DNA of 64,000 nt from NCBI GenBank assembly GCA_051294375.1, contig CM119264.1:14720682-14784681 (forward strand). The letters are read 5' to 3'. The notes under the pieces are model-generated. The model made no database searches. It worked only from the letters and a program-made list of their open reading frames with translations, and was not told where the DNA came from. This DNA is from Paraspadella gotoi (lineage: Eukaryota; Animalia; Chaetognatha). Both the position numbers and the translations under genes were made by a program. Shown here piece by piece: positions 9,501 to 46,069 of this stretch (its first letter is position 1; each line of letters starts with the position of its first letter).

Positions 9501-9775
9501 TTAGCTTTTAAGTTATCAGCGACGAGTAACACCCATAAGAAAAAACTAGACAAATTTGTGCAAAATAAAATTTTTAAAAGTGAAAACACGATCAGTCTAA
9601 AGTGTCGGAAACGAATGGGTAACACTTACCCTCATCAAAAAGTGACAGCGCAATATTTTAGAGAGATTATGAAAGAATTAAAGACAAAGAGAGAGCGAGT
9701 GGCAGATGTGCCGATAAAAAGAGATAGAAAAAGAAGCAAGAGGAGACATAGCAAGACAGAGGAGAGTAGAATTCT

Positions 9776-12700
9776 CTAGAAAACGGCGTCAAAAGCGGAA
9801 GTTTCTTTGCCCTCCAACAACGCTGTCACAGGGGCCAAAGCGTTCGCCGACGTCATCAAGTAATTCTGCACCGGAAACGAAAAAAGCCTTCGCGTCATTT
9901 CGCGTCATCGAGGGACCGTCTTTGCGCCACGAGTGCGCAACGACGGACGGTGACGAAAAATGGAGCGTTCACCAACGATTAAACATTTAAAGTTAAAACT
10001 AAGTCGATACGATCGAGTGAGAAAAAAAAGGTAATAAATAATAAACAATACAACTACATGTACCCAAGTTTTCGTCGTAAACAAGATTTAACGAGTTAAA
10101 GATGTGTTCCGATTTTCTAAATATTTCAATCGCTAAAAATACCGACTAACTCGTTAAATGCGGGGTTTCGACAACAAAAAAGGATGTAGTGTTTTAAGGA
10201 AATATTTTTTTTTCCGTCGCGCCGCGTTGTGTACGCAGCGAGGAAGTGCGCTACTTTAGTCTAGTCTATTTCAGAGGTTCGTAACTTACGTGGGCGTACG
10301 ACATCGCCGACTTGCGTTCAGTCGAGGAAGCGTCTTTCCCGATCCAAACGAAGCACTCGTTCATCCCGTCGATGATGAACACGTCCTTTACGATGGAAAG
10401 AAAAAAAAAAGATACAGTATATGGATAATAAAAAGTAGGGACTGTTATTGAAAACAGGTCCAGGCAAGAGCCCGTCATAAAAATCCTCAATACGTCGCAC
10501 CTTAGAATCGAGCATGGATTTGTTGAGGTCGCCTTCGGCGACCTTGTCGAATGACATTGTCCCGGTGGCGTCGGAAAGTTTGAAGAGAGAGGGCGTGCCT
10601 TTCTGCAACGGAACGTCGTCGTCATCGTCGTCCACTTCATCTGCCAAGCGAATCGGAAAAAAATCTACAAATCTAATTTTCAATCCCATTTACTCATTTA
10701 GATAATATTTCGACTATAATTTTTTTTTAAATTTTGGTCGACCCACTTCGCTCTTTCTTCACATCTGTAGATCCGTGACTAATCGTCATCCGATCTCATC
10801 CACCGGAGATAAAGACTCACCCTCGACGGCGAACTTGGAGGTGAAGTCTTCGTCTTCCTGTCCATCCTCGACAAACTCGACCTTCATTCGGCCCAAGCGA
10901 CGGTTCTTCAGATCGTTCATGTATTGCATCGCCTTGAACCTGCGATCGAATTAATCCAATCAAACACGATTGAGTTATCTAATCAAACCTAATTAATACA
11001 ATCGATAAATCCAATCAATAAGTTTTTTTTTTGAAAGAAAACAGAGGAAACAAATAATTACGGGAATGGTTGGAAAAATATCTTATGTCAACAATAAACG
11101 TGAACAAAAAAGGAAAATAAAAAAAAGGGAAAATAAAAAAAAAAGAGATCAGGGGACAAAGTCAAGCAAATCCGTCCACATGAGACGGCAACTCAATCAC
11201 GGGACTCCGGGAAGCAAGCAGGTCCCCGTTCTCGCGCTGAAGGCAGACAGAAAGTCTCTCAAAAAAGTGCGTTGACGTTTTGCCGATATTAATATCAATT
11301 CATAAATAAATTCAACTAACTTTTCATCTTTGTTCGCCTTAGAACCAGTCCACTGGAAGGCTTCAAGGCCAAGATCGAGGATAAAGACGTCGTCGCTAGT
11401 CAAGGCCGATCGGCGAAGCGGGACTTGTTTCACCTAAACGTTTATAAAGTTGAAAGTAGTTTTAAAATTTCGCCCACTACACTCATTATATACAGAAACA
11501 TTGATTGCTGATTATTTAGAGAGGCCTTTCGACATGCAAATTTAGGAATAGGAGGCTTCGCTCGAACAAAGCATTAATCACCGCGCGGCTTAGCACATTA
11601 AAAACAAAAAAAAACATACCGTGCATCTTTTTGACTTAGCAAGAATAGAATCAAATTGAAAAAAAAAAAAAATGGGGAAAAACATGAACAATGTTCATTG
11701 AACATCAATTGAGAAATTAAATTCTCGCGTTATTTTTGGTCACATAGGAAACTAATTCCTCGATTGGCATGAAACTTTCGATGACAACTCTGTCCCACTG
11801 GAACATTTATCAAAAGCCACTAACATAAGACTTAAAAGACTCAACAAGTAAATAACCTAGATAAGAGGAAGGGATCTTAATTCAGCGTCGATACAAAGAA
11901 TAAGACCTAATTCCTGCGACCCTTTTCGCGTCGATCAAACCGGTGACGCCCCACCGAGGACTCCGAACTTTTTTTTATTTTTTATTCTCAAAGTAATTAC
12001 CCCCCGTCAGATTAAGTCTTCTTTGAAGAATCGTGAAAGTTTATACTGAACTGTTCCAATCCAAAGTCGATCCCCGTGGACACGATTTTTTTTAAGAGTT
12101 TTGATCGGTGTTTCTGTTGACACCAAGCTTTTTACCTTTACACGGGTGCGGTCCCCATGAAAGTGCATGAGTCGAGCCTTGTACTCCTGTGGTTTGACTT
12201 GGCGAAAGCCCGTATCCGCGCCGCCCGCGAGATATTCCATAACTGGAAAGTAACTCTTGAAAAGGCCGCTCTCGTGGCTGAATAGATCAAAGTGGGTAAT
12301 CTTAATGGTTAAGATTTCAATCGTCTCGGGGAGATAGTACCGGGGGGTCCAGTTCTAATGGGACGGTTTAGAGTGCTAATGACAATATAAATGGAACTAA
12401 CGAGGCGAGTTCTGGTCACAAAAAAAGGTACCTCATTTTATAATATGAAGCCTTCTGTATATTTGGAAACTAGGTTAAATTATCTTTTGATCGATATCAA
12501 AAACGTCTGGAAAATCCAACACCAACTACTGTAATAAAAACATTTTGCATAACATATCATAATTTTTCAATCCCCCTGATTGATGAAAATGTAGGATACA
12601 GAAGCAGAATGTCCCACGCATCCCCTCATGTGTCGACCTTCTGACAGCAACAATAATGACACAAATGATAGCATTCCCAACGGTATTGTCATTATAGCTT

Positions 12701-13809
12701 TTTACAAGTATACTAATTTTCATTCAATTTTTTTTTGTTTTCCCGTCCAAAAGATTTTTTTAGGTTAGTCCCAAAAGAGCTGGTCCTCCCTGTAGATGAG
12801 GAAATTGCTAGATTTGCATCAATACTTACCCTTGGACTTCTCTGTGTTGAACGGGCTTGTCATCGAGTAAAGTGTCCAGCTCAACGGTTTTGTAGGCAGC
12901 CGTGCCGTACTCGTCTTGAGTCGAATATTGCCCGATCCAAAAGTGGACATCGTATTCCAAATCTTGCTCCCCGGGTTTTTGATAAGTCTGAAAAGTAAAA
13001 CGGCCCAGTTAAAAAAACAAAAAAACAAAAAAACAAAAAAAAAACGAGACACTTCCTAACTTTAAATTCCAGACGCTCTATAAAAATAATTTAAAAAATC
13101 ATATAAAAAACTGTCAATGCGCTGATGAAGGCTTGCACGTCAAAAGCCGAAACATGTACGAATTAAAAACTGTCGTTGTTATAAATAATTCGAATATTTA
13201 CTTACCTCTTGTAATAAAACAATATTTTTTTAGATGAAGTAATGTGTATAAATTTTATTACAATCAGTCTCATGGTTTAAAAGATATTATTTTTTAATCT
13301 CGAGTATTCCGCTAATTCAAACGCAACAAATGAAAGTAAAACAATGCCGGGAAATATTTAGCATTTACTGATTTGGACAACTGATTAAAACATTGTATCC
13401 CGTTTACATTAAGAATGATGTAGGAGTCTCCAGAGTAGAATTCGCCATACTGTTCCTTGGGCCAAGAGACGATTTTGAACTGAACCACGCGCCAGATTTG
13501 AAGTCCAATCTAAGTAGTTAGATGTTAAAATAAAGTCATTAATGGCATTATATCGCCGTCGATGAAATGTTATATTATTTTGTTATCTCGTGGCCGACTC
13601 GTTTTATGTGGTGACTTTCACCAACTGCACGAAATGTGCTGCTCCCTCGTATCCCCCGTTTACCAAAGCCTTACCTTCGTCCCCGCGCCCTTCCAAGCCG
13701 GCTCCGTCTCTGCCGAGTTTTTTTTCACGTTTTTTTCCAAATCTGACCCAAAGAGCGCCATGTTGCTGTCCTTCCAGTCGTATTTCTTGGCCTTTCGAAG
13801 TCCAGCCAT
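9776..13809 (-). CDS. Gelsolin-like actin-severing protein (three-domain, severin/fragmin type)
   Basis: Nine GT-AG exons: 13809-13675, 13509-13408, 12987-12830, 12277-12136, 11433-11321, 10939-10821, 10640-10501, ~10386-10291, ~9865-9776. Translation: [39 protein letters not shown]...[10 protein letters not shown]...[11 protein letters not shown]...[25 protein letters not shown]...QHREVQGHES...DDVFILDLG...[20 protein letters not shown]...FDAVF*. Confidence 0.95.
12340..12792. mobile_element. MITE family A, second copy, in gelsolin intron 3
   Basis: TA|CCGGGGGGTCCAGTTCTAATGGGAC ... GTCCCAAAAGAGCTGGTCCTCCCTG|TA. Internal AAACGTCTGGAAAATCCAACA is the reverse complement of the ~2508-2528 segment of the first copy. 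Confidence 0.8.
13116..13164 (+). ncRNA. Minimal hammerhead ribozyme (PLE type), antisense in gelsolin intron 2
   Basis: CTGATGA-A-GGCTT(gcacgtcaa)AAGCC-GAAA-CATGTA with imperfect stem I (AATGCG/CGAATT). The downstream TCGTTGTTA tail is shared with the 7801 copy. Confidence 0.8.
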
Positions 13810-14217
13810 TTTGGATTTTTGTTTTCTGGTCAGGAAAAGTCAGTGAATTCCAACTCGTTATCTGATCTGAAGCAAAAAGGAAACAGTTGGGGTCAATTTT
13901 AGCGAAGCTTTCTTTCGCAAATCAATTCGATCGGAATGACGAATTCGATCAATAAATGATGAATTGCAGTTTAACGTGGCGAGCTTTTAAAGCTGATTGA
14001 ATTAGAGAAAGGGAACTAGTACAGCAAGTTATCTTCATGCAAAAAATAAATAACTCAACAGATCAGAGAAGAAGAAAACAAAGAAAAGCAGTAAAAGAGT
14101 AAACGAACGTACAAAAAATTGACGCTGGAGATTTGCTTAAAGAAAACTTTGGTAGCATTCTGATTGTTCCACCACGAATCTTGAACGATCTTCCCTCTTT
14201 CTCTCAAACATGTCTCT

Positions 14218-14495
14218 GTGGCGGTATACTCACACCGCCTCACGTCCACCATCGTTCAGCCAAATCCATTGGCTCAGAGGGTGAACACACCATCCCAGGC
14301 GTAGTGTTCCATCCACAGTCCTAACGACTTCCCTCTGCGTTGGCAAAGCGAGACCGTCCTAGGGTAACCGCGCCAGTGACTGGAGGCGTCACTGAGAGTC
14401 GGAAGCCCCCAAAGCCAACAGTGAGATGCCCCATCCCAATGGGCATCATAGGCAACCCGGCTGTTGCCATATCTCCACCTTAAAGTGACTTTAAA
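14218..14495. other. GC-rich multi-hairpin element (candidate ncRNA or TE terminal structure)
   Basis: At least eight short perfect stems in nested arrangement, with GC content clearly above the flanks and no ORF support. Confidence 0.5.
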
Positions 14496-15163
14496 TTCGC
14501 TGCGATAAGTTTTGAGATGTCGACGCGGATTTTTTTATTTATATTAAAATTTATATTATTGAATACGACTGAAAATGTCCTTTTTATTTGCGTGGCAAAA
14601 CCCGAAATATTCGTAAAATGTTTTGGGTAGATCGATTTCTATCTTCGCATCTTGATCGTGTTTTAAATCGAAAATTAAAGCGCATTTCATGTTCCCAACG
14701 TCAAGTTTTATGAGAATGTCTCAGCATGACAAAACGGCCCGCCAGCGGTAGACCAACGAGTAGACCAACTTGTCTTCCGAGAAGATCTTTAGCAGATTTA
14801 AGTAATTAATATTTAGTTAATTCTCAACTTTTAAACACAATTCATTATCTGGCCACAAAATTTTAATGACGTCTAAAAACCGGGAGAACCTGAAAGCGTC
14901 CCTTTCTCGGGCGAATCTCAAGATTGTCGAAGAGTCAATCGGTTTTATTTGTTTAACAATCAAAGCAAAATTATTTATTTGAAGCCCAGAAGTTGTCGAT
15001 TTCTACAATTTTTTTGAAAAGTGTGTTTTTTTTCTGTGACAATTACTTTTATTGTTCAAGAAAGGCTAAAGGATTAATTGAGTTAAAAATTGTCATTCGA
15101 AAATTCAGAAGTAGACGATTGTGTTTTGAAGTGCTGCTTTCCGCGGAGTAAAAAATAAAAAAA

Positions 15164-16759: not shown

Positions 16760-18513
<1,754 letters not shown>

Positions 18514-20530: not shown

Positions 20531-21619
20531 TTAATCTCCAATCGATCTTTCGTCTCTTGACGCCACGCCCACTTTTTTTGCGGCAATGAGTTTTTCGGTC
20601 GATCGAGTTATCGTAGTCGTCGTCGTCGCAGTCGCCGACGCGGCTGCAGCGGAACTTACACTGTTCCACCGCCGCTTCAGCCGCCGTTCGACGACGCAGA
20701 GAAACGTTCCTGGAAATTCCGCCGAGAAGACGCCGACGAAGTCAGAATCGTGAAGGATGGAGGGAAGAAAGAATGAGCGACGCCAGACTCGGTCGGCGTC
20801 GGCGGAAGTTCTTCCCTTTTCGCTCCGCGGGCCTTTCGTCAAGTTCCGACGCCCCGAGTTTGAGATCCTCCCCAAAACGTCGACGATGATTGGTGCTCCG
20901 CTGTCCTCGAACATGACTATCCTGCTCCCGTCTCTCCTACCCCAACCCATCTTCGACGTCTTCAACGTCCTGCGCATCGACTTTGGGTCCCCGACGACCA
21001 CGCGCGCCTCGGAGCCGGCGCCAGAAAGGCGGTAGACGAAGTGGGGACGCACCGCGCGGAACGATTCGAAGTCGAGCCCGTCCAAAACGCGGAAGAGGCC
21101 TTCGAGATCGTCGGCGAAGACTCCCAGGCGCCGGACCGAAGTCAACAGGCGACGAAGGCTGAGCGAGGGTAGATGCCTGGCCGAAGAATTAGCATTGGCG
21201 CTCAGGTTGACGGAGGAGTTAAGGTAAGACGCCAAAAGTCCGAGGCCGCCGCCGCCGATGTCATCGTCGCTTCCTTCGCTCTCGTCCAAAGCGTCCTCCG
21301 TCAACACGAGCGTAAGTCCCGCGGCGTGACACCGACGCACCACCGCCGTCCACGATTTAGCCCGCCGGTGGTGAAGGAGAGCCACGCCCAGGCTCTTCAA
21401 CTCGGCGGAGACAAGTCCCAAATCCGAATTCAGTTTTTGGAGGGAGGCGTGGTTGCGTTGCGCGGCGACGACGTACAAGACGCTGACGAAGACGAAGATG
21501 ATGACGACGAGGAGACTGCGTCGGAGAAGCGAGGAGGCCGTCGAGGACGAAGCGACGAGGATTTCCGGGGAAGGCTCCGCCTCCGCCTCCAACAGCGGAT
21601 CCTCCTTCCCATTCAGCAT
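20531..21619 (-). CDS. Intronless type II membrane protein (362 aa), possibly a degenerate LicD/fukutin-related protein
   Basis: Long GC-rich ORF with an N-terminal TM (LLVVIIFVFVSVLYVVAA) and a coiled stem. Later segments loosely parallel LicD/FKRP (RCHAAGLTLVL, LGVFADD, IIVDVL, FFLP..DFVG....FP....VVER....W). Family assignment is tentative. Confidence 0.7.
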   Translation of the reverse strand: MLNGKEDPLLEAEAEPSPEILVASSSTASSLLRRSLLVVIIFVFVSVLYVVAAQRNHASLQKLNSDLGLVSAELKSLGVALLHHRRAKSWTAVVRRCHAAGLTLVLTEDALDESEGSDDDIGGGGLGLLASYLNSSVNLSANANSSARHLPSLSLRRLLTSVRRLGVFADDLEGLFRVLDGLDFESFRAVRPHFVYRLSGAGSEARVVVGDPKSMRRTLKTSKMGWGRRDGSRIVMFEDSGAPIIVDVLGRISNSGRRNLTKGPRSEKGRTSADADRVWRRSFFLPSILHDSDFVGVFSAEFPGTFLCVVERRLKRRWNSVSSAAAASATATTTTTITRSTEKLIAAKKVGVASRDERSIGD

Positions 21620-22649
21620 TTCGCGTTTTTATCGACGACTTTTTTGTTATTTTTTTCATTTATTAGTTCCTTCCTTTTTTTTTTTTTTTGTTGCTAAAGC
21701 TTTTTTCAATCGCTTTCAAGTTTTATCGGTAAAGGTTTTCTCTGAGGGTTGTCAGTTGATAAAGGTTCAATCAGGATCTCCGATAATTGGGTTCTTAATT
21801 AGATGAAAAATAATAGCACGAACGGCATTGTTTCGACACTGTTGCGATCGTGTTTTGCGGTAGTGATAAGTTTAAGTTTTAGAAGTTTAGGAATTAAAAA
21901 AAAATTATATTTAAAATTCGTCATTAAAAAAATATACCATGAAACAAAATTAATTTATAAAATTGAAAGTACGTAAAATCTAGAGTAAGCGAACATTTAT
22001 GATTTATTATTAAATTCTTATCGAACGCGAAGAACAAACATCGGGACATAGTCGGCAAAGTCTCTTCTGCCAAAATCTTAGAACTTGGTTTCGAGTCAAA
22101 GTTTTGGTTGAAACACATTCGAGCAGAAGACGTCGTTTTGAACTCTTTCCCCCGCCTAATTTCTTTGTTGAGGCGACTCATCGGTTTTAACTTATTTGCA
22201 ATTACAGCCGCGTCCCTGATATTCCGAACCGATGTTAAGTCATAGAACTTCGTTTCAGGTTAATCGAGAGGTTCTTTGGAATAGAAGCAGCGTCGCTGCA
22301 GCCCGACAGCCACCGCTGCGTCAGAACCAGCGGCAGCAGCGACGGGGGAAAGGAATTGGTAGGTAGGTTCGACGCGGGAGAGATAAAAAAAAACAAAAAA
22401 AAAACCAAGTTTTGAATGTTTGTCCTCGGAGCGAAGAGAGATTTTAAATTATTGAAGTCAATTGAGAACGAGACGCTCCATTTGAATTGTGGATGAAGAG
22501 GAGGCCATTGATTTTTGAGTTTAATCGGAACCGCGACTTTGACGCTAATTTGAAAGATGTGTTGCAAATGAGAAGCGAAGAATTTTGACAGCGAAAGGGA
22601 ATGATGGCTCAATCAATCAACCAATCGTTTTCCGCATAAAAATATAGAA

Positions 22650-23145: not shown

Positions 23146-23690
23146 TATCCAACGGGTAATGATATTTCATCACTACAAAATCATTATATATTTATTACTC
23201 ATTATTACTCAAAAGTATTGAAATTCATATACAGTCAAGATCATTCTCAAGATAACATTTTTTTTGAATTGGAAAAAAAAATATTAAGATTTGCAAATTT
23301 AAAAAAAATGAGAAAAATCATTACTCAAAAATTACCAAATGTTACGAGAAATCAGAAACGCCATTGACTATTATTTAGGATTTTTTTTTCAAACATTCGT
23401 TATTTGAGTCAGCGCAATTGGTATTGCCCGACGTCTTCAATTTACCTTTGCCACAACACGTTGACCTCGAAATCATTTCCTCTTCTCGTTACGACGTTAA
23501 GCGAAAGTAATCGATCGATCCATTTGAGCGCGAAAGAAACTCACAAATGTGACTCCCGCACATCTCGCAAAGTCTTTTCTGCATTCGTCGCTCGCAAAGT
23601 CGCCACTTTTGTCTCAGTGACGCAAGTTGGTCCAAATTCGCTTCTCATTTTCGCAAACGAGAGAGTTTTACGATTGCCCAGCGCCCACAG

Positions 23691-23817
23691 TGACGTCAGC
23701 GTGAGAAAGAAAAGGACATTATGTGTTTTGGATAGTATTTATATCGTTTGGTTAAAAAAAAACAAAGTTATTAAAATCGATAATATTATAAAAAAATTTT
23801 AAGATTTCTTATAAAAG
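23691..23817 (+). promoter_or_regulatory. CRE (TGACGTCA) and TATA-like box upstream of the peptide precursor
   Basis: Palindromic TGACGTCA at 23691-23698, TGACGCAA near 23618, and TATAAAAG at 23810-23817. Confidence 0.4.
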
Positions 23818-23996
23818 CAAAAAAGCGGATTATGTCTATTGTCTATACATGATGCTATTGATCGAAGCACTGTGCCGAATCACGTCAAAAAAGGGGTCTA
23901 CAAAAGGCGCGTCTGGCGAAGAATGGCTTCAAATCGTTGGTGTTTTCTGCCGCGAAAAGTCGAGACGAGCTTCAGATCTTCTACTTCAGAACCTCA

Positions 23997-24551
23997 ATGA
24001 AAATGACGCGCATCTCCGCTTCTATGAGCGTCGTCATCGCCGTCGTCCTCGCGCTTTTTATGACGTCAATGGCGGATTCCAGAAAATTCGAAATCAGCGA
24101 TCGACAGGTCATTGAAAGATTGAAGAATCATAAAGAAATTAATAAGAAAACTTATTAACTTATTTAGCTTTGATTCCTTTTATTTTCGATATCATGAGTA
24201 TGTTTTGGAAAGTCGTAATTTCAACCTTTTTTTTTTTTGAGTAGGACGAATCAAAATCAAATCGAAAAAAAAAATTAACGAACCTATTCAAAATTTATTT
24301 TGAATATTAAATTATAATTATAATTATATTAAATCTGTTCGACCTTTAGCTGCAACACGCAATAAACATCTTGGTTCGTTTGTTGTCACAAGAAGCTCCA
24401 CTGAATGCGCCTTTGCCGGCAGAGCGTCAACCTTCTCTTCCGTTTCTGTTCAACCAACGATTTAGAGAAGAACTTCCCAGGTAAAACTTATGGGTTTCCA
24501 TCTCATCAATTTCATGTCGTTTCGGTTGAAAGTTTAAAGAATCGATGGATG

Positions 24552-24582
<31 letters not shown>

Positions 24583-25262
24583 CTTGTAGTTTAAATACGC
24601 TGTGTTAACATATAAAGACTTTCATATCTACGCCGTATTATTCATTTGAGAATCAGCAAAAAAACAAGAACAAAAACAAAAGGACATCTTCCTTCCGATC
24701 TTTTCATCTTTACTGCCACGCCCTCTTCGAGTTTTTTTTTTTTTTTTTTTTTTTCAAAACCGCCCACTTGCAACTAATTTTCTGTCACTTTGACGAAAAA
24801 ACCTTTTTCGCCTTCAGAACCTTTTAGTTCTACACTGCGGCCACTTTTTCACATATATAGAAAAACAATCTTTTATCATCAGTCAGAAAAAAGTATCATC
24901 AACATAACCTCAAAAATCACCTTTTCCCAATTCCGTTTTCAGACTTTAAAGTATTGCTGTATTCAACTGCCTGAACAATTTTTTTTTTCACCAATCGATA
25001 GATTTTTTAAAAAGCTATACTTTTTATAAATATTTTCTCAAAATTAAAAAAGAAATAGTGGGGTATTTAAAGCTAACAAGCTAACAAGCTAACAAGCATT
25101 GTATTCCAAATCAATCCTCCCTTTTCTATTCCTTTTCATAGACGCGCCCCCTCGAAACGCGTTCTCGGCTCCGGAAATCTCGACTTCCTCAACGACGGCG
25201 ACGGCGACGCCCAAATTCCAGTTCCATCGCCGGAATCTCGCGGTCTCGGCAATCTCGGTTAA
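23997..25262 (+). CDS. Secreted prepropeptide, candidate amidated neuropeptide precursor (120 aa)
   Basis: Exons 23997-24107, 24350-24480, 25142-25262 (GT-AG, phases 0 and 2): MKMTRISASMSVVIAVVLALFMTSMADS-RK-FEISDRQLQHAINILVRLLSQEAPLNAPLPAERQPSLPFLFNQRFREELP-RR-APS-KR-VLGSGNLDFLNDGDGDAQIPVPSPESRGLGNL-G*. Confidence 0.75.
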
Positions 25263-25702
25263 CGAGCCGGAGGGATTTGTTAAGGGAAAGACGAACTGAC
25301 CCGATGGACGTATATGTGAACTGGCAAAGGATTCGATTGATGACGAAACGACGTAAATTATGTATCTCTTCGCTTTAAAATGCGATATTCGTGTTTTTGC
25401 AATAATCTTTATACGAGGTTTTTATTAAGATATACGAAATAATTACGAAAGAAATAAATCCATTACGTTTGAAGCTCGTTTTTTAGCAATTGTCAAAATT
25501 GCGGTTATGACTTTTATTTTTACGTGTCTAAAAGTAAATAAATAAGAATCGACTGATCTCAACTTAAAAATCATTGAATAATAGTTTATTCGTCGATAAC
25601 GTTAGCAAACCCTCTCATCTTCAATGCGATGCAATGCGATACTAATTATTTTTACTGTTCATTATGTTGTACTCAACCGTCCGTATTTATTTTGATTATA
25701 CT

Positions 25703-26330: not shown

Positions 26331-26394
26331 AATTTAGGAGTCGCGATTAGTAATCGATAATTAGTAATCGATTAGTAATCGCGACTCCTAAATT
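26331..26394. repeat. Perfect hairpin with internal tandem units
   Basis: AATTTAGGAGTCGCGATTA ... TAATCGCGACTCCTAAATT (19-bp arms) enclosing repeats of TAGTAATCG. Confidence 0.85.
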
Positions 26395-29275: not shown

Positions 29276-30065
29276 TAAGATACAGGGGGTGCTTTTTATT
29301 TTCATAAACTTACCCACCCATTTAATACAACCTATTCTAATACATTCCTTGATCGATATTCTATAATGTATATATTACTCTGTAACGGTTTGTCCCCTTC
29401 AGCCCTAACCCAACTTCATGTATCGTTCGTCGTCGATTGATTGAATTCAAAATAGGCGATAAACGAGCGAATTCGTCATTTTAAAACTGGCGAAAGCGAC
29501 GGCCAATATGAATTGGAACTAATTGAAAAGAAATAAAATCAAATATACGATAAAAATACGTGGCAAAAGTTCGACAAAAGCGAAGCGAAAAGTAAGTGAA
29601 AGGTTAGAGAAAGGAGCGTCAAAAGCGCGTAGAAAGGCGCGGAGAAGGGCGCGGGGAAAGGCGCTTGAAAACCAATTGGACTACGACGTGCGGAAAAAAA
29701 GGTATTTCACTCGGAGTCTCGCTTCGCTCATGGAAAGTAATACAAGTGGAAACAAAGTCAGACGAGAATGGCGCCAAGGAAGGTCTTTTTTTCGTCTGGC
29801 GCAGGGGAAGCTTTGTATCGTGGGCCAAAAACGGAAGGATGCTCAATTGCTCATTCAAGAGACAAAAGCTTTGGTAACAGTTTAAAAAATATTAAAATTG
29901 CAAAACCTTATCTCTGATTTTTGCAAGTTTGCAATTTTTTTGACAGTTCGTCGCGATTAACAATAGACCCGTTGTGAACTTGTGATCGAAGGGAGCAGAT
30001 GTTTAGTTCACAAATGTTAGGACAAAAAAATTTGTAAACTAAAAACTGGGACAACAATCGGCAAG

Positions 30066-33000
30066 ATGAAGATGAAAATTCCAGTCTTGATCGTCATTGC
30101 GGTGCTGTTTAACGAGTCGGTAAGTGCTTTTCAGATAGCTTTGCGTCAATTACAACATTTACGTTCTCAAATTATATTAAACGAATGTGTCTAATTCGCA
30201 TTTTTATTTAGAATTCTTGTTATTTTTCTTGACTGCTGATGGTTTTAAAACCTTGCATTAAGACCTCAAATAAAATTACTAGAAATTTTGTGTAATACTT
30301 CCTCATTATTTAACCAATAAATTTCAATAACTACTACTTTGTCTTTGCTTTGGACTTCATATTTTCATTCGTTGCCTTTTCATAAGATTTTCCAAATTTG
30401 AAAAAAATAATGGGTTCATGACCTGGCATATTCCTGCTATGTCTATCTATTAGCATATATATAATTCATTAACTTTAACTTCCTTTCAGTTGGCGCAAAG
30501 CCGAGAGATTTTCGGCGCAGACGGCCCAAACTTGATTGGACCGTCGGCAGCAGAGATTCTCGCTTCTGATTGGTCGAACCAAAATGACGACATCGATGAC
30601 GGTTTAACCATGGACGAGAGCGTCGGCGCGCGGGTACAAGCAGGTTAAGACTGGTTTAGTGGATGAATCCCGACAACTTGATAGACTTGAAACGCCTTCA
30701 TCAAATTCATTAAAAAATAACTCATTATCCGATTTAATTGGCAACGGCGGGCGATTTAAGCTAGGAATAAAAAAAAATTTTCACCCATAAAAGCTGGAGC
30801 CGATTTTCCCGTAACGACGTGAAATGCGTATTTCCCCGCTGGCGAAAGAAAATTCCACGGTCGACCGATGGCGCTGCTCATCCCTTTTCATCGGAATCGA
30901 GCGCTCAATAAATGGCCTTCCAATTACGGAATAAACGTTTTCCCCCGGGGAGATGAAAATAATTCATCGAACGTCTAACGATCCTTGGTATTCCTCTCCG
31001 TCGGGGGGGAGAATCTCCGCTTTTAGTTCTTAATGTTGTGACACCAAGGATTTTTTACTGCATTTCGCTGAGGGAATACTATTTTTTGTTAGATAGGAGC
31101 ATGGCGTTCTCTGGAAGTTGTTTTACTTCAAGCTGGATATCTTTGAGAAGAGTGCTAACAAGGGTTAAAGAAAGTCCAATAGTGTCTAAAAGCCTTTTAA
31201 TATCTTGGTCAAACTAACAATATTCGCATCTTCTTTGTCCGTCGTTTTCCTTTTTATTTTGGCCGCAAGAGTGCTCCCTCTCTCTCTCTAAGAGTCACTT
31301 TGATGTTTTAGATCAGTTTTCCCACTTTGCGGCTTGGGTGTGCTCCAACTGCTCCATCCCAAAAGGGTCACTTCGCCTCTGAAAGGAGTTTTTAAACTAG
31401 ACACTTCGTGGGCGCCCCTATGTCCCTTCCCTCGGAAAATTCTTCACGTCTTAAACCGAGTCGACCCAGAGGCCCGATGGGTAATGGAGAGAGAAAGTCG
31501 TAACGACGACGACGACAAGTTTAACTTCTCTCGATATTTTCGCTCGTTTTCGACGGAGGAGAAATAACTGGGACATTTTTTCTAGAAGAGTCATGTCGTA
31601 AAAAGATCTTCGTACTGAAGGATGAATGACAGGAGAAAACGATGACGACGTTAGATTGCAAATCGACTTTTGAAAAAAAACAAAAAAACCCCGAGTTCAT
31701 AAAACCGAACTCAACGAGTTTCTCACCTCACCTCAGTCCCAGACTTACTTGCCAGTTTTTTTTATTATCGCTATAAACTCCTTACTTTTCCCATTATTTT
31801 CTTATCTTTTTCGTTTTTTCTTCTCTTTCTTCCTTCGGCTTCTCTCTTTCCTTTTTCTTCTCTCCGCCATTCCCATAATTTAGCTTTATTTTTTTTCCTT
31901 TTTACCTCTTTCTCCTTTCCCATCCTCCACCAGCGGTGAGCTTTTAGAAATCGCGGATTGCCCACTAAAACCTTTGATCCTCTTTCTATCTCAGAAGCGG
32001 CTCTGACCGAGGACGGCCAAATTCTCCTCCAAGGGGACATGAAGTTGGACCCAACGCAACTGCGACGGTTTTACGAGAGAAACGCGGGACTTTCCGGGGC
32101 GGCTGTGAACGAGGATGAGAGGTGAAGATTGATGGTGGATAAAAGTGGCGTCCACAAATCACACTGTGAAGGGTGTTATGGTGTTAAGTCTTCCTAACAT
32201 CGACAAGTTTTGTTTTTTCAAATAAAAAAAATCGGCTTTAATTTAAAATTTAGGATTAACAATTTTAATTTTTAATTTAATCGTTTAGTATTCCAAAGAT
32301 CCTTATCTGTCACAAATACTTCCAGGTGGCCACATGGCGTTATCCCCTATTCCATCGACCCCGCGTTGGACGGTGAACCGGCGCGCGTTGTTCTCGGCGC
32401 CATGAGAGAGTGGATGGAACGCACGTGCGTCCGGTTCGAGCCCGTCGGAGGCGCGGGCGCGCGCGGGGCCGGACACGATAACTCTATTCAAATAGTGGAC
32501 GGAGGTGCCCGCGTAGGGTGGTGTGGGTTATGGGGAAATGCTTGAAAGAAAAGGTCTGCGTAGGCGTAAAAGAGATAAAAGCATAAAGGAAACGAAAGGA
32601 TAATGAGAGCCGATGTTCATCTTTGTGTGTGTTCGAATCGCGATAAAACCTCGAGTTTTTGACAAAAGGTTTTTGTTATAAAAAGCAGGTTCGTGGATTA
32701 TCTAATACGCGTTATCTTATTAAATTTGCGAAAACGCAAACAATATTAGCGAGAAAATTTTAATTTTTTTTTTGAATTTCATAAATGTTTTTTTTTGGTG
32801 GAAATTACGAATATCGTTTTGAATAAAATCGGATTTTAAATTCATTAATTTTTTCGAACGAATATTTTTAAAAACCTTTTAAATAGGCTTGAAAACTTGG
32901 GAATCTATTGGGCAAAATTTCAATCATTTCACTGTATTGGTTATGTTTGTTGCTTTGTTAATTCACTTTTTAATCGTCAATATTTACTTTTTTTGTCCCT

Positions 33001-33930
33001 TTTCCGCCTTCTGTTCGTTTCACCTCACCCCACCCAAAAGCGGGATGTCGTTCTGGCATCGGCTACCGCGGAAAAAGTTACACAGTCTCGCTATCGAAGA
33101 AGAGTTGCACTCGACATAAAAGTCACCTTCACGAACTGGGTCACGCCATCGGTCTACACCATGAACAATGTCGCCCGGAGCGTGACCGGTAATTCGCTCG
33201 ATGAATTAATTGGCGATTCACCAGCTCATTGTAATATCGTTGTTCAAGTGCCATCCAGATCGTCTGGGACAACATCAGCATGATGGGCTCACTGCAGTAT
33301 GTCAAAGAGGAGGCCACGGCCAACTTCTCCATCCCGTACGACTTCTGCTCCATCATGCACTACGGACCCAAATACTTCTCCAGCAACAGGTGAGCAACAG
33401 CGTTCTATGTCGGTAATCGCGCGACGTTCTTTTGTTTTGCAGTTGATCTGTCAGTTGTGGATATTAGAGTGAAATGAATTGGAGCAAAATGATGTGAGTC
33501 GTAGAAAAAAAGTGGCGTCGTTTCTCTCAAGGTGACAGATTTTATAAAAATATGTCCGTTCGCTATTTTGTTTTGTTTTTTTGGGTCGGTCAATGGCCGC
33601 CGCAGTACTTTACCATTGGCGATGCCATTTAAAGGCCATTGGCGAGAGAAAGAGAGAGAAAGAGGAGAGAGAATGAGAATAAAAGAAAGAGAGAGAGAGA
33701 AAGGATAGAAAAGGACGGTGAAGGGCAAAAAAGGGGAAAAAAAATCGGATAGAAGGAGAGATATAGAGGCCGTTGGTTAAAGGGACGAATTAAATTTGCT
33801 CCGAGAATTTATGTCTTCCGCCATAAAAAGAATCGGATGAAAGGTGGTCGCCATCGTTCAACGACGTCTTGTTTATTTGTTATTTTACGAGAGGCAATTA
33901 ATTTTGGTTTATAGTCCGGGAGTGGGTGGA

Positions 33931-34021
<91 letters not shown>

Positions 34022-34893
34022 AATTATGACGAATCGGTTTCACTCCAGGAAATTCACAATGCTCGCCGCCGACCAATCCTACCAGTGGACGATGGGTTCG
34101 GCGCAGCATTCTTTCCTTCAACGAGCGAAGATTGTTAATCTGATGTACGAATGCAACAAAAGTTGCGGAAAAAGCGATAAGTAAGTACTTCATTTAACAA
34201 TAATAATAAATACTTAACAATAGTAACCTGTAGAAAAGTAAATGTTCCTCACTNNNNNNNNNNNNNNNNNNNNNNNNNTATGAAAAGGGAAAAAAAACCT
34301 TCTAACTCCCCAAAACGAGGGATATCTGATAAAACGTCCTTTGCCTCTTGTTGCCAATTATTTTACTTGAAAATGGATTATTTCTGTTACGCAAGTTATT
34401 ATCTTTTCCGTTGCTCGCTGCTTGCTGTAACCTACATTTTTTTTTTCATCAAAGCTTTGAAGAAAAATTTCTATCCAATGCGCTAAAACTCGTGCCTGTC
34501 ACCTTCGTCAGGCGTTTTATCTGTTGTTTTACCCATATTTATTTCAAGTTCGCAGCGATGGGACGGAAGAAGGAAAGAAATTAATCAAATCCCGTTTGTT
34601 AGATCTGGCTTTACGCTCGCGCGACCGCTTTCAATTCTAAATGATAAAACCTAACGAGTTTTTTTTTTTTTTACTTTTTGAAAGAAAAAAAAATGTGACG
34701 AGGGAAGAAGGTTGACGCGTGACGGTCAGGGAGTTAACGGAGCGGACGATCTTGACGTCTCGCGGCGCATTACCACGGTGGTCCTTTTGGCTAACCGGAA
34801 GTGGTCGCCATCGTTCAACGACGTCTGTTTATTTGTTATTTACGAGACGGCAATTAATTTTGGTTTATACGTCCGGGAGTGGTGGATGGAGAG

Positions 34894-34989
<96 letters not shown>

Positions 34990-35996
34990 TAATTATGACG
35001 AATCGGTTTCACTCCAGGAAATTCACATGCTCGCCCGCGACCAATCCTACCAGTGGGACGATGGGTTCGGCGCAGGCATCTTTTCCTTCAACGACGCGAA
35101 GATTGTTAATCTGATGTACGAATGCACAAAAGTTGCGGAAAAAGCGATATAGTAAGTACTTCATTTAACAATAATAATAAACTTAACAATAGTAACCTGT
35201 AGAAAAGTAAATGTTCCTCACTGTTCGCTGTCCAGATCGTCGTGCAAGAGTCCCTGTTACGTCAACCACAAATGTCGTATGCGAATGCGACGAGAATCCA
35301 TGCGAAAAGATTCCTGCGAAAAAAAAGTAAATATTAACAAAAAAGATAATAAATAAATTATTTTTTAAAAATTAGTTAAATTTATTTCGACAACGATATT
35401 TTTATTTACAATAAAAGAACAGACAATTAAAATTTTAAAAAAAATTCCTTTCAGGAGTTCCAGACGAGATTGCGAGGAAGCCAAAAGAATTTTGAAATAC
35501 GGACGTTGAAAAAACTATATTTGCGGTGAACCTGCATGTATATATAAAAACTGGTACATAATATTTCAATTAATAAATGATTGAAATCGTTAAAGAAGAT
35601 TCCTACAAGATTAAAAACAATGATCTTTGGAGGCGATGACTCTTCCATAGTCCTAAGCCTGACACCCATGACCCTTCCTTCCTTCCTTCTTCCTTGACCC
35701 TTCCTTGACCCTTCCTTCTTCCCCCATCTCCCATGGCCCGCGGTCTCCCCTCCCACCGCCGTCCGCTATCTACGCGATTCTCATGCATTAATCGTACAAT
35801 CTGCGCAAAAATATTTCGCGTTGTTGTTTTATTTATATGCTTATTTATGAGGGCGTAGCGGTGGAACCAAAAAAGAGTTGCCAATCATTTATAACTGGAT
35901 AAGTTTGGAAAAAGGTCCGAAAATATATTAAAGAAAGAAAGAAAGAATAAAGAAAAAGAAAAAAAAAAGGAGGAGAACGAAGGAAGAAAGAAAGAA

Positions 35997-41800: not shown

Positions 41801-44160
41801 CGGTTTCGCACCCTTAATTTAAAAAAAAATCGATTAAAAGAAAAGACATCCACCTGAGACAGGGATTCGATTCAATTAATTATTTTCCTTCTCCTAAGCA
41901 AAAATAGGTTATATATCGGGCTGAGGGGGCGGGGGAAACCCCGGAGGAAGAGCTTTACAACGAAGCGTTTCAAATTGCGCAGTTTGTATAATGTAAATGT
42001 TTCATGGGATTTTTAGAGTAGGTACAGTTGGAGGAGTTTGTATACGTATAAGTTGTTTTTTTTTTAAACTTATTTACAACGAAATTTAACTGATAACAAT
42101 TCCTTTTGGCGAGGAAAAAAAAATTTTAAAAATTAAAATTTTGAAATCTCCTAGGTATAAAAATTATTCTGAAACGTTTCTTTTACAACGTAATAGGTTT
42201 TAACTTTTAAATATTAAGTGTAAATGTTTTTTCTACTTTCCTTATCGGAGCGACTAAATTGTATTTTAAGCTTCTAAATTATTTTTTCATTACTTTTAAT
42301 GATTAGTTTTATTTCCCGAGAAATTTGTAAAAAAAAAACCTAAAGACGATGATTTTTTTTTTCATTTTGAATGTGTTTTTTTTTTTTTTATAAAAACTCC
42401 CGACGAACTTTCTCGCCGAAACGAAAGAGTGCGAAAGCACTGGTGAGACGATTACATAACTCGCTAGACTCATGTCATTTTAATTTTTAAGTTATTACGA
42501 GAACTTAACAGTGAGCTACATAAAAGTAACCGGCCTTGTCTGAACGTAACATTTAAGTTATTTAATTAGTCCTTTGTTTTTGTTTATGACTGACATAAAT
42601 TAGATCATTGGCGTGGAAGTGATGTTCCCTCATCAAGAGTTCGTTCGTCCTGACATTGAAATCGAAATCATCTCCCCTCCTTGCCCTCAGATTTTTTGTC
42701 GTCCCCCCCACCCATCTTTCCCCCAATCTAGAACCAACCACCTTCGTCCCAACACCTTCGGCCCAACCACGATGAGGGGAAAGAGATAAAGATCGACTCG
42801 CTGATTTATTTCTCTAGGGTGAATCAAGGGTGTGGCACTTGGTGTAGGGCGCGGATATATCCCGGTCTTTTCTAATAATGTTACGATCGACATTTTTTAA
42901 AATTGTAAATGAATAATAAAAAATAAGTAATATACTAAGTTACGACACTTCTATAAAAAAAATAATCAAGTGAATTCAAAACAATCGTTAACGTTAATTA
43001 AAGTTAAGATTAAAGTTAAAGATTAAAGTTAAGATTAAAAACCAAAACGTGGTCATTAACATCTTTTCAGAGGATGACACAATTTTTGTCCGAAGGAAAA
43101 ATCCCTTTGCTTTAACTTGAAACATTTTGAGGGGATTTTCGTCTCTACGAAAACGATGCGAGGCAGAACTAAAAACCGTCAATCAAGAGAAAAGATTAAC
43201 TTTTTCTGGTTTTTTTTTCCTGTCGAACGGGTGACGTCACTCTCGCATATTACGACATCCTGGATCGAAGGAAGTTGGTTTACACTCGGGACGAACTATT
43301 TGGTGACTAAAAATATCAGCGACCGGAACTCGTGGATTCGCTTTCCAGAATGTTCCGGCGACAAGACGGCAAGTGATTGTTAAATTTCCCTCGAAATTAA
43401 GAACTAAAAAAACCTAATAATAATAACATGGTGAACTTTAAATAAAACCTATCCTCGAATTAATCGCGATCGAACAAAACCGCGGAAAAAAGCCTCCATT
43501 TCGATCTCCTTGAACGATCCTCGCACTCGGTTTTAAAGATCGCGATTTGATCGATATTGTAGGAGAATTTCAATCGTCACGGGAATTTCACTTTGAAAAC
43601 AACGATTTCAAGGAGATGCATCGCGAAGAAACGCAGGTAATGTTGGTTTTTTGTTTTTGTTGGCTTGTTTTTTTGATTGTTTTTTTTTCTAGTTTTTTTG
43701 TTGTATTTTCTTATCAATCGTTTTATACATCGCTTCGCTCGATATGACTTTGCCATATCCGTGAGTTAACATCTACGAAAAGAAATAAACATAAAAAAAA
43801 AAAAAAGGAATAACTGCATGACATTAATTGGGTTCATCGACCTTCGTGATGTAGCCTCCACGACCTCCTCAGGATACGGTGTGTCGGTTTATACGGTTTA
43901 ACCTCTTCTTTTTTTTTCGGTGTAAATTTTCTTTCACTTTAAAGTTTAATTTACATTTACGCGAGAATGTCACGCTCGATACAGGATAAGTCAATAAGTG
44001 TAAAAATCTCACTTTGATCAATGTTATCAATTCAGAATTATAATTTTCTTCGAATATTTTTTACCTAAATATTTCAAATTTAGTATGGTCTCTTAAAATT
44101 TTTAAATTTTTGTACCGAATTTAAAAAAAAAATGATTATGTTTACTTCAGAAATCTACTC

Positions 44161-46069
44161 ATGGCTGAATTTGACGCTCACGATCCTTTCATCGTCGACT
44201 CTCCCAGCGCCATCTTTCTCAGAAATATTTTTCTGTCTCGTTTTCTCGACGCAAAACTGACGCCGCGCGGCACCGTCGCCGCTCAAGGAATCTCCGTCGC
44301 CCAATCAAATTCCGGCGCCGACGGAGCAGAAAACGCCGGATCGAAGACGGACGGTGCCGAGAGTCTCGACGACGAGGAAAGCGTTCCGTCGTCGTCAAAG
44401 ACGCCGGGATTGTCTACGTCTCTCTGGTCGACGTCGGCGTCTTCGGCGTTCGTGTCGATAAACTGGGATCGTAAATCGATTTACGGAAGAGAAACTTGGA
44501 AAGAATCTTCGAATGTCTCGTCCGACTCTTCCCCTTCTTCTTCCCTTTCCCCCTCTCCCTCACTCCTATCCTCTCTCTCCCTCCGCGCCTTTATCGCCGG
44601 CGCGGTCGCCGGCGTCGTCTCCAGAACGGCCACCGCGCCGTTGGATCGGGTCAAGGTCATCCTTCAAGCGGAAACCGGCGCCTCTGCGACGGCGACGCTG
44701 GCGTCGTTACGCGGCGTCCTCGCTCGCGAAGGCGTGTTCGCTCTGTGGCGCGGCAACGGCGTCAACGTGCTCAAGATCGCGCCGGAAACCGCCATCAAGT
44801 TTGCGGCGTTCGAGGAAGCGAAAGCGGCGCTGCGGCGTCGTCGAGGCGGCGCCCAAACTCTCGGCGTCGGAGAGAGATTCTTGGCCGGCGCCTCCGCTGG
44901 CGCCATCGCACAAACATGTACTTATATATGTTTTTAATAAATTAAATTAATTTAAATAATTTTCCAACAAAAGCCGTGAATCAGTGTTTGTGTCCGTCTG
45001 TGTGTTTTGTTCTCTCTTCATGTCAGTCTGTCTGACCCTCTTGATTTAAAAACAACGAAAAAAATAGACCAGTTATACAATCAACTAGAAGAGAGAAGGG
45101 AGAAAAAGATTTCATTACACCGACATACCATAATAAAATATATATATTTAAAAATATAATATATATAATAAAATATCATTAGATATCTAGAGAACTTTCA
45201 CAACAAAGGCGAATCGACTGAAAAGAAAGAAAATCGATTTTTTATCTTTTTTCCCTTCGGCTTCGCAACGAAACGGATTGAAATTAAATATAGGTTTTTT
45301 CAGGCCAAATGTATTATTAACATCGGCGCTGATGATTTAATAAAAACATTTTTTTGTAATCGAGAAGACTTTATGAAACATTATTGGCCGAATTATTCTT
45401 TTATCCAAACCTAAGGCATCTACCCGCTGGAAATCCTGAAGACACGCTTGATCGTCTCAACCTCCAGCGACTTTTCGGGCATCGTCAGCTGCGCTCGGCA
45501 CTGTTTCCGGTCCGGAGGCGTCAGGTAAATGACGGCGTCATAAATGTACCGTGCCGATAATTTAAAACGATAGTGAAAAAAAGTATTAAATGTTTATTCT
45601 CAGATGCTTTTTCCGTGGCTACGTGCCTAACATCCTCGGCATTATCCCTTACGCGGGAATCGATCTCACCGTCTACGAGTTTTTGAAGGAAGAATTGAGC
45701 GATCGATTTCGGGATCCCTCAACGATATCTCCGGAAGCCTCCGATCGAGACTCCACGCCCATTTCCGGGTCGAAACCGCCTCCTTGCGTCGCCTGCCTTC
45801 TCGTGTGCGGCGTTGTGTCATCCTCGTGCGGCCAGATCGCCTCGTATCCGCTTGCGCTCGTGCGCGTGCGTATGCAAGCCGGAAGCGACGGCGCACGCGC
45901 GACCATGACGTCGATCGCTAGAGGGATTTGGGAGGCAAGCGGCTTGAGGGGATTCTATCGCGGGTTGGGTCCGAATCTCTTGAAGGTGGCGCCGGCTTTC
46001 GCCATCTCTTATGCCGTCTATGAGAACGTCAAGGCGAGGCTGGGTGGCGTGAGTGAGAGGAGTAAATAA
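44161..46069 (+). CDS. Mitochondrial carrier, SCaMC/ATP-Mg:Pi type (SLC25A23/24/25/41-like)
   Basis: Exons 44161-44917, 45416-45524, 45604-46069. Three Px[DE]xx[KR]-type signatures (APLDRVKV, YPLEILKTR, YPLALVRVRMQA), plus SCaMC-typical WRGNGVNVLKIAPETAIKF and GYVPNILGIIPYAGIDLTVYE. Confidence 0.93.

What the first reader, a model, noticed from the sequence alone, without database searches (positions are those of the whole stretch)
23997..25262. Unannotated three-exon precursor for a candidate novel C-terminally amidated neuropeptide
Seen: the exons splice in phase to a 120-aa protein with a hydrophobic signal peptide, RK/RR/KR dibasic sites and a terminal Gly directly before the stop. Established: KR cleavage plus a terminal Gly is the prohormone convertase/PAM amidation signature. 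Inference: the product is a 32-aa VLGSGNLDFLNDGDGDAQIPVPSPESRGLGNL-amide, or GLGNL-amide if the single Arg is cut, with GNL occurring twice. I do not recognise the family; the layout (helical propeptide, one C-terminal peptide) loosely recalls PDF or DH31/calcitonin precursors. A full CRE lies ~300 bp upstream.
Basis: partly seen in the sequence, partly recalled or inferred. Interest (0 to 1): 0.8.

Follow-up and report, generated by a model that had tools for sequence, protein, structure and literature searches.

The report
Stretched PDF-like neuropeptide gene, arrow worm
A small spliced gene, probably from an arrow worm, encodes a predicted secreted precursor that would release one amidated 32-residue peptide, likely a stretched and much-diverged form of the clock-and-arousal neuropeptide PDF rather than a new family.

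Summary
The gene is real. The three exons give a 120-aa frame. An RNA contig joins exons 2 and 3 exactly at the predicted intron, and only the proposed frame is open across it. The exon 1 link, secretion, cleavage and amidation are inferred. No homologue was found by search.

Read by eye against 25 published spiralian PDF/cerebrin precursors, it has three family blocks in order: the propeptide helix, G-x-hydrophobic-D-x-L after KR, and L-x-x-hydrophobic-Gly at the end. Motifs I loosened after seeing the sequence were met together in 0 of 300,000 shuffles. The first coding exon is 111 bp, as in tardigrade pdf genes.

Strict membership fails: 32 residues against 16-18, no central LPDL block, no basic residue after Gly. 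Calcitonin/DH31 is not met.

Verdict: most likely a diverged PDF-type neuropeptide (0.55); lineage-specific peptide 0.25. The arrow-worm host comes from unchecked earlier notes. The scan had not noted this DNA elsewhere; one PDF-like candidate exists in another genome.

The parts
23615..23626 (+). CRE-like site in the same flanking context as the full CRE
   Evidence: 2 matches of the shared 12-mer pattern in the window; the pattern was drawn from these two sites, so the count is no test; function untested
23691..23698 (+). Perfect CRE (TGACGTCA), 306 nt before the ATG and about 100-120 nt before the TATA-like boxes
   Evidence: function inferred
23787..23816 (+). Two TATA-like boxes (TATAAAA at 23787 and 23810)
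   Evidence: the transcription start is not known
23973..23989 (+). Pyrimidine-rich acceptor-like site 7 nt before the ATG; possible trans-splice or leader-intron acceptor. Four upstream ATGs lie between the TATA boxes and it
   Evidence: inference only
23997..24107 (+). Coding exon 1 (37 codons): predicted signal peptide (cut after residue 26 or 28), RK site, start of the propeptide
   Evidence: link to exon 2 inferred
24108..24349 (+). Intron 1, 242 nt, phase 0, GC 0.22; weak donor (CAG|GTCATT)
   Evidence: inferred
24350..24480 (+). Coding exon 2: amphipathic propeptide helix, Pro-rich linker, second short helix
   Evidence: (helix 2-13, pLDDT about 90 over the first 10 residues); 24378-24480 covered by RNA
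24481..25141 (+). Intron 2, 661 nt, phase 2
   Evidence: spliced out in an RNA contig
25142..25262 (+). Coding exon 3: RR, 3-residue spacer, KR, predicted mature peptide, Gly, stop
   Evidence: covered by RNA to 25208
25161..25256 (+). Predicted 32-residue amidated peptide (net charge -4; monoisotopic [M+H]+ 3222.60)
   Evidence: processing inferred
25257..25259 (+). Terminal Gly, predicted amide donor
25453..25542 (+). Candidate polyadenylation signals (AATAAA at 25453 and 25537)
   Evidence: use not shown

Best explanation
This is a transcribed, spliced gene for a predicted secreted prohormone that would release one amidated 32-residue peptide, most likely a lengthened, diverged PDF/cerebrin-type neuropeptide that would act on a secretin-class (class B) receptor. 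Shown: transcription of exons 2-3, the intron 2 splice, and the single open frame. Inferred from established pathways: the signal peptide takes the precursor into the secretory route; the amphipathic propeptide helix likely helps sorting into dense-core vesicles (recalled); a prohormone convertase cuts after KR87 and probably RR82; PAM turns the terminal Gly into an amide, with no carboxypeptidase trimming needed there. By analogy with tardigrade PDFs (PMC11879619) the peptide would raise cAMP through the PDF receptor and so set locomotor, feeding or daily activity states. The upstream CRE would let cAMP signalling drive the gene.
For: Gene. A codon model trained on neighbouring genes scores the proposed frame best of the three forward frames in all exons. 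Family, counted by eye on 25 spiralian PDF/cerebrin precursors visible in the supplement of PMC8557429: (1) propeptide helix [EDN]-[IV]-x6-[ILM]-x-[RK]-[ILV] in 20 of 25; ours fits the spacing with Q-L at the first two places; (2) G-x-[ILVA]-D-x-[LVMI] just after the dibasic site in 20 of 25; ours is G-N-L-D-F-L; (3) [LF]-x-x-[ILVA]-Gly in 24 of 25; ours is L-G-N-L-G, and two molluscan rows end L-G-D-I-G and L-G-D-V-G; (4) the precursor ends at the amidation signal in 25 of 25. Shuffle rates for the loosened motifs are 0.016, 0.011 and 0.049; blocks 2 and 3 together 0.00043; all three 0 of 300,000; blocks 2 and 3 in 2 of 44,052 unrelated 32-mers. The first coding exon is 111 or 117 bp in 5 of 5 tardigrade pdf genes whose structure is given; ours is 111 bp. 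Echinoderm PDF-type peptides are 29-35 residues.
Against: Strict motifs fail. The peptide is 32 residues against 16-18 in all 25 spiralian examples. The central [LMI]-[PQR]-[DSNE]-[LF] block (25 of 25) is missing. Phe stands where a small residue usually does. No basic residue follows the Gly (present in 25 of 25). There are two extra N-terminal residues. The motifs were loosened after I saw the sequence and I looked at about ten families, so the shuffle rates overstate significance. No Pfam match and no true homologue in three searches, all run on single exons of 40-44 aa. The peptide model has no stable helix and low confidence (pLDDT 56). The DH31 propeptides and the iPTH N-terminus seen resemble the same helix. 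The first intron of the sea cucumber PDF gene is phase 2, not 0. The tardigrade intron position could not be aligned. The exon 1-2 link rests on inference.
Confidence: 0.55

Rival explanations
1. A lineage-specific neuropeptide family unrelated to PDF, built on a twice-repeated G-x-G-N-L unit, processed the same way and acting on an unknown receptor.
For: No homologue found. Strict PDF motifs fail. A gapped repeat of this form arises in only 1.4% of shuffles. Phylum-specific peptides are common in spiralians (PMC8557429 section 5).
Against: Three PDF blocks in the right order and places, a PDF-like precursor end, and the 111-bp first exon would all be coincidence. The searches used 40-44 aa fragments and are weak.
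Confidence: 0.25
2. Another class B receptor ligand: iPTH/QSGamide-like (in which case the segment after RK could be the active one) or DH31-like.
For: iPTH peptides start with Ser-Asp near a dibasic site (PMC7224569), and ours has S-D-R-Q after RK. A loosened iPTH end motif G-x-G-x-hydrophobic-D-x4-G is present (0.4% of shuffles). DH31 propeptides have a similar helix. A phase-2 intron before the last KR also occurs in sea cucumber calcitonin.
Against: The iPTH motif lacks its Pro, is not followed by basic residues and is cut off from the helix by RR and KR. The complete iPTH precursors seen nearly all run on after the amide, and ours does not. There is no Cys pair and no Pro-amide.
Confidence: 0.1
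3. A secreted, amidated peptide of gland or epidermal cells (adhesion, defence, prey handling), not a neurotransmitter.
For: A Gly directly before the stop is typical of venom and antimicrobial precursors (recalled). The propeptide has a strongly amphipathic helix (hydrophobic moment 0.75). The site of expression is unknown.
Against: The amidated peptide is acidic (-4) and rich in Gly and Pro, unlike membrane-active peptides (recalled). No look-alike copy was noticed in the window. The CRE/TATA layout and PDF-like blocks fit a neuropeptide.
Confidence: 0.07
4. Exons 2-3 belong to a transcript with another 5' end, so the product lacks this signal peptide.
For: The exon 1 donor is weak compared with the 8 RNA-verified gelsolin donors.
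Against: Exon 1 has coding-like codon use and GC 0.50 that drops to 0.22 at the donor. It supplies an ATG and hydrophobic core in phase with the only usable acceptor.
Confidence: 0.03

Closest known systems
Spiralian PDF/cerebrin precursors (Platynereis pdf, molluscan cerebrin, nemertean, brachiopod, phoronid; supplement of PMC8557429)
   Same: Signal peptide, amphipathic propeptide helix, KR, one C-terminal amidated peptide that ends the precursor; G-x-hydrophobic-D-x-L start; L-x-x-hydrophobic-Gly end.
   Different: Peptide of 32 against 16-18 residues; no LPDL-type block; no basic tail; longer Pro-rich propeptide with extra RK and RR sites.
Echinoderm PDF-type precursors (Asterias ArPDFP, PMC4772807; Apostichopus AjPDFP1b, PMC6586643)
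   Same: Peptides of 29-35 residues. AjPDFP1b has the layout signal peptide, KR, non-amidated peptide starting I-S-D, KR, short spacer, KR, amidated peptide ending L-G-x-x-Gly, with a phase-2 intron 7 codons before the last KR (ours 5). ArPDF1 shares L-G, D-F and D-A-Q at the same D-F to D-A-Q spacing.
   Different: The first intron is phase 2 there and phase 0 here. Their peptides have basic middles; ours is acidic and rich in Gly and Pro. D-A-Q is not in the sea cucumber peptides, so it may be chance. Their own link to protostome PDF is questioned (PMC7235175).
Tardigrade pdf genes (PMC11879619)
   Same: First coding exon of 111 or 117 bp, so a phase-0 first intron after codon 37 or 39 (phase derived by me from the exon lengths).
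iPTH / QSGamide / PXXXamide (PMC7224569; PMC8557429)
   Same: Ser-Asp near the start of a helix after a basic pair; a G-x-G-x-hydrophobic-D motif.
   Different: No Pro at -4, no Gly plus basic residues after the motif, no C-terminal extension; helix and motif are separated by cleavage sites.
Calcitonin / DH31 (PMC12638048)
   Same: Length of about 32 residues, helical propeptide, phase-2 intron before the last KR.
   Different: No Cys pair, no C-terminal Pro-amide.

Membership tests
Amidated peptide prohormone (general) | Spliced transcript with one open frame | tested here: met
   for exons 2-3; exon 1 link inferred
Amidated peptide prohormone (general) | N-terminal signal peptide | tested here: met
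   hydropathy and -3/-1 rule only; SignalP not available
Amidated peptide prohormone (general) | Dibasic site and terminal Gly present | tested here: met
Amidated peptide prohormone (general) | Actual cleavage, amidation and neuronal expression | not testable with these tools
   needs peptidomics and in situ data
Spiralian PDF/cerebrin | One amidated peptide at the very end of the precursor, after a dibasic site | tested here: met
   25 of 25 published rows; ours
Spiralian PDF/cerebrin | Propeptide helix [EDN]-[IV]-x6-[ILM]-x-[RK]-[ILV] | tested here: inconclusive
   strict form not met; met with Q and L allowed, 1.6% of shuffles; helix predicted
Spiralian PDF/cerebrin | G-x-hydrophobic-D-small-hydrophobic-aromatic start of the peptide | tested here: inconclusive
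   G, hydrophobic, D and L met (1.1% of shuffles); small and aromatic positions not met
Spiralian PDF/cerebrin | [LF]-x-x-hydrophobic-amide end | tested here: met
   4.9% of shuffles
Spiralian PDF/cerebrin | Central L-P-D-L type block next to the end | tested here: not met
Spiralian PDF/cerebrin | Mature length 16-18 residues; basic residue(s) after Gly | tested here: not met
   32 residues, Gly then stop
PDF (bilaterian) | Shared intron position | tested here: inconclusive
   first exon 111 bp as in tardigrades; sea cucumber first intron differs, last intron agrees in phase but so does calcitonin
PDF (bilaterian) | Pfam match for any exon (a Pfam model of arthropod PDF/PDH is recalled, not seen in a call) | tested here: not met
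   0 families for the three exons
PDF (bilaterian) | Activates the PDF receptor | not testable with these tools
   receptor not in the window; no whole genome held
Calcitonin / DH31 | N-terminal Cys pair (calcitonin) and C-terminal Pro-amide | tested here: not met
iPTH / QSGamide | Ser-Asp near the start of the mature peptide | tested here: inconclusive
   S-D present after RK, but not in the amidated segment
iPTH / QSGamide | P-x-x-x-Gly plus basic residues, then a C-terminal extension | tested here: not met
Allatostatin A / buccalin | Many short copies ending aromatic-x-G-x-L-amide | tested here: not met
   single copy, no aromatic residue in place

The most novel reading that the evidence does not exclude
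A protostome PDF of the long, two-peptide kind so far described in echinoderms: both the 50-residue segment after RK and the 32-residue amide are released and act on the PDF receptor. An arrow worm would then link the short protostome PDFs to the disputed long echinoderm ones, and suggest that the long form is ancestral.
Probability: 0.15. Interest if true: 0.7.

Novelty: new variant of a known kind. Interest (0 to 1): 0.47.

Why it matters
Arrow worms and their gnathiferan relatives were named in 2021 as unsampled for neuropeptide signalling (PMC8557429 section 17), and my searches listed no later survey. A PDF about twice the usual spiralian length and without the core LPDL block would show how far this ligand can drift. 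It gives a defined peptide to test on the receptor and a marker for candidate clock or arousal neurons in a phylum where many species migrate vertically each day (recalled). It would also bear on whether the long echinoderm peptides are true PDFs. If it is only a lineage-specific peptide it is a useful catalogue entry of a common kind.

Tried and rejected
No whole genome is held, so paralogues, a canonical pdf gene and the receptor could not be sought. The run search listed one run, not on record as an RNA holder; its contigs do not cover exon 1, intron 1 or the stop codon, which is no evidence either way. Contig depth (2.3 here, about 1,500 on gelsolin) cannot rank genes and is not used. Word-indexed searches with exon 3 and exon 2 against longer proteins: 17 candidates each, 0 hits. 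HMMER search of 1.84 billion representatives with exon 3: 2 hits, both rejected as summed weak matches in repeat proteins: a leafhopper 55-aa repeat protein at 21.6 bits per copy and a cadherin-like protein. Pfam and PDB sequence searches: nothing. The protein atlas gave no result. Fold search of the exon 2 model: 0 matches; the exon 3 model was too poor to search. Rfam: 0 matches in the window. A search with a neighbouring carrier gene gave only 41-57% identical relatives in the 120 rows listed and did not fix the host lineage. Earlier scan notes held no look-alike. All searches used single exons, so the power of a full-length query is untested. No BLAST or HMM score against real PDF precursors was computed, so the family comparison is by eye plus motif shuffles. 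A recalled likeness of the segment after RK to vertebrate PTH was not tested. The phase-2 intron test was set aside because calcitonin shares it. No complex was predicted, as no receptor was in hand. Supplements not seen that may bear on the claims: the tardigrade gene sequences, those of the Spadella atlas preprint, and the alignment figures of PMC4772807 and PMC6586643.

Full report
Observation. Exons 23997-24107, 24350-24480 and 25142-25262 are bounded by GT..AG and give 120 codons and a stop. Exon GC is 0.50, 0.47 and 0.61 against 0.22 and 0.31 in the introns. A codon model trained on the neighbouring gelsolin and carrier genes scores the proposed frame best of the three forward frames in each exon (0.56, 0.03, 0.80); exon 2 is weak, and one reverse frame of exon 2 scores only slightly lower. 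The protein has a hydrophobic core at residues 12-22, possible signal cuts after 26 or 28, dibasic sites RK 29-30, RR 81-82 and KR 86-87, no Cys, and a terminal Gly.

Transcription. One public run was listed (X1). A 170-nt contig of it lies on 24378-24478 and 25140-25208 with no mismatch and skips the 661-nt intron 2. X1 is RNA of this species: it splices eight introns of the gelsolin gene nearby. Intron 1 is inferred. Of 36 donor/acceptor pairs with a stop-free first exon, 5 reach the proposed end, all through acceptor 24349, and four of these cut inside the hydrophobic core.

What chance allows. An acceptor followed by KR and Gly-stop occurs 5 times on the two strands of this window, this gene included, so that signature needs the other evidence. 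A repeated 3-mer arises in 19% of shuffles of the peptide; the actual repeat, G-x-G-N-L twice, is of a form seen in 1.4%. Perfect CREs number 5 in the window against 0.58 expected. One lies about 100-120 nt before two TATA-like boxes. Four upstream ATGs and an acceptor-like site at 23989 leave the 5' end open; about half of genes are trans-spliced in one arrow worm (PMC12460157, passages).

Host. Two unchecked earlier notes call this genome an arrow worm, one of them on the same piece of the assembly. I could not test this. My own check shows only an animal with no close annotated relative.

Searches. Pfam, PDB, two word-indexed searches and one full HMMER search found no true relative. The two HMMER hits were repeat proteins whose weak matches add up. 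All queries were single exons of 37-44 aa, so the blanks are weak.

Comparison with published families. I read parts 20 and 26 and search passages of the supplement of PMC8557429 and counted by eye on the 25 complete PDF/cerebrin precursors visible there (14 from nemerteans, brachiopods and phoronids, 11 annelid and mollusc references; 19 of the last 23 mentions were shown). A propeptide helix [EDN]-[IV]-x6-[ILM]-x-[RK]-[ILV] is in 20 of 25; ours has the same spacing with Q-L at the start, across the inferred exon 1-2 junction, and exon 2 is modelled as a helix there. G-x-[ILVA]-D-x-[LVMI] follows the dibasic site in 20 of 25; ours reads G-N-L-D-F-L, and Platynereis G-T-L-D. The end [LF]-x-x-[ILVA]-Gly is in 24 of 25; ours is L-G-N-L-G. 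All 25 end at the amidation signal, as ours does. The loosened motifs are met by 1.6%, 1.1% and 4.9% of shuffles, blocks 2 and 3 together by 0.043%, and all three by 0 of 300,000 pooled shuffles. I loosened them after seeing the sequence and looked at about ten families, so these rates are optimistic.

Against membership. The strict forms of the first two motifs fail, the central L-P-D-L type block (25 of 25) is absent, the peptide is 32 residues against 16-18, and no basic residue follows the Gly. The peptide model is low-confidence and without a stable helix. I therefore file it as PDF-like, not as a shown member.

Gene structure. Five of five tardigrade pdf genes whose structure is given have a first coding exon of 111 or 117 bp (PMC11879619 section 2.1); ours is 111 bp. 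I could not align the positions. The sea cucumber PDF gene has a phase-2 last intron 7 codons before the last KR (ours 5) but a phase-2 first intron (PMC6586643 supplement rows); its calcitonin gene also has phase-2 introns there, so that test does not discriminate. Echinoderm PDF-type peptides are 29-35 residues and come two to a precursor (PMC4772807 and PMC6586643, passages). Their link to protostome PDF is questioned in PMC7235175 (passage).

Other families. Calcitonin and DH31 need a Cys pair or a Pro-amide (PMC12638048, passages): not met. iPTH/QSGamide shares an early Ser-Asp and a loosely similar Gly motif (0.4% of shuffles), but the Pro, the basic tail and the C-terminal extension are missing (PMC7224569, passages). 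Allatostatin A/buccalin needs many copies and an aromatic residue: not met.

How it likely works. Shown: a spliced message with one frame over exons 2-3. Inferred: entry to the secretory route, convertase cuts at KR87 and probably RR82, amidation of the terminal Gly by PAM, and release of a 32-residue amide. The single Arg before GLGNL lacks an upstream basic residue, so the pentapeptide is less likely (rule recalled). By analogy, the peptide would act on the class B PDF receptor and raise cAMP, as tardigrade PDFs do; PDF-type peptides control daily activity, locomotion and feeding arousal in other animals. I put this at 0.55, a lineage-specific neuropeptide at 0.25, another class B ligand at 0.10, a non-neural secretion at 0.07 and a wrong 5' end at 0.03.

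Novelty. PMC8557429 (section 17) names chaetognaths as unsampled. Searches for chaetognath + neuropeptide (30 of 44 listed), rotifer + Gnathifera + neuropeptide + precursor (11 of 11) and arrow worm + pigment dispersing (3 of 5) listed no survey and no arrow-worm PDF; one search was uninformative (15 of 1,774). The genome paper's main text has no mention of neuropeptides, and two passages of its third supplementary file mention loss of some neuropeptide-signalling genes. The Spadella atlas preprint uses the word neuropeptide once, for an FMRFamide receptor (passages). PMC11521371 (passages) added nothing. The library lacks most subscription journals. Verdict: a real gene, most likely a new and unusually long variant of a known neuropeptide kind; interest 0.47.

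Noticed in passing
window 14179-14660: A non-coding stretch just upstream of the gelsolin gene carries very high contig depth in run X1 (about 27,000 and 9,600 in two bins), as for a much-repeated or much-transcribed element. Rfam gave no real match. Earlier notes describe twister-bearing miniature LTR elements in this genome; identity with them is untested.
   Followed up: partly
window about 9630-13800, minus strand: Gelsolin/villin-family gene of about 360 codons; 8 introns verified by RNA.
   Followed up: yes
window about 16760-18100, plus strand: Pieces that read by eye like a rhodopsin-type peptide receptor (ERY motif at about 17205, hydrophobic segments), with an in-frame TAG at 17897 beside a short tandem duplication; pseudogene, assembly error or unseen intron. 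No Pfam or PDB support.
   Followed up: partly
window about 30060-35300, plus strand: Astacin metalloprotease gene (Pfam hits on two exons). One exon region appears twice, on both sides of the N gap at about 34255-34279, with indel differences; likely an assembly artefact.
   Followed up: partly
window 44125-46069, plus strand: SLC25A23/24/25-type mitochondrial carrier; best relatives only about 50-57% identical.
   Followed up: yes
window 20531-21628, minus strand: Single 365-codon open frame with an N-terminal hydrophobic segment, like a type II membrane protein; no Pfam match.
   Followed up: no
window 23923-24000: An upstream ORF of 25 codons ends with a TGA that overlaps the main ATG; a second one from 23849 overlaps exon 1 in another frame. 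Either the start of transcription is downstream or the leader is replaced by splicing at 23989.
   Followed up: partly
window 26331-26394: Inverted repeat with 28-nt arms, 96% complementary, 8 nt apart.
   Followed up: no
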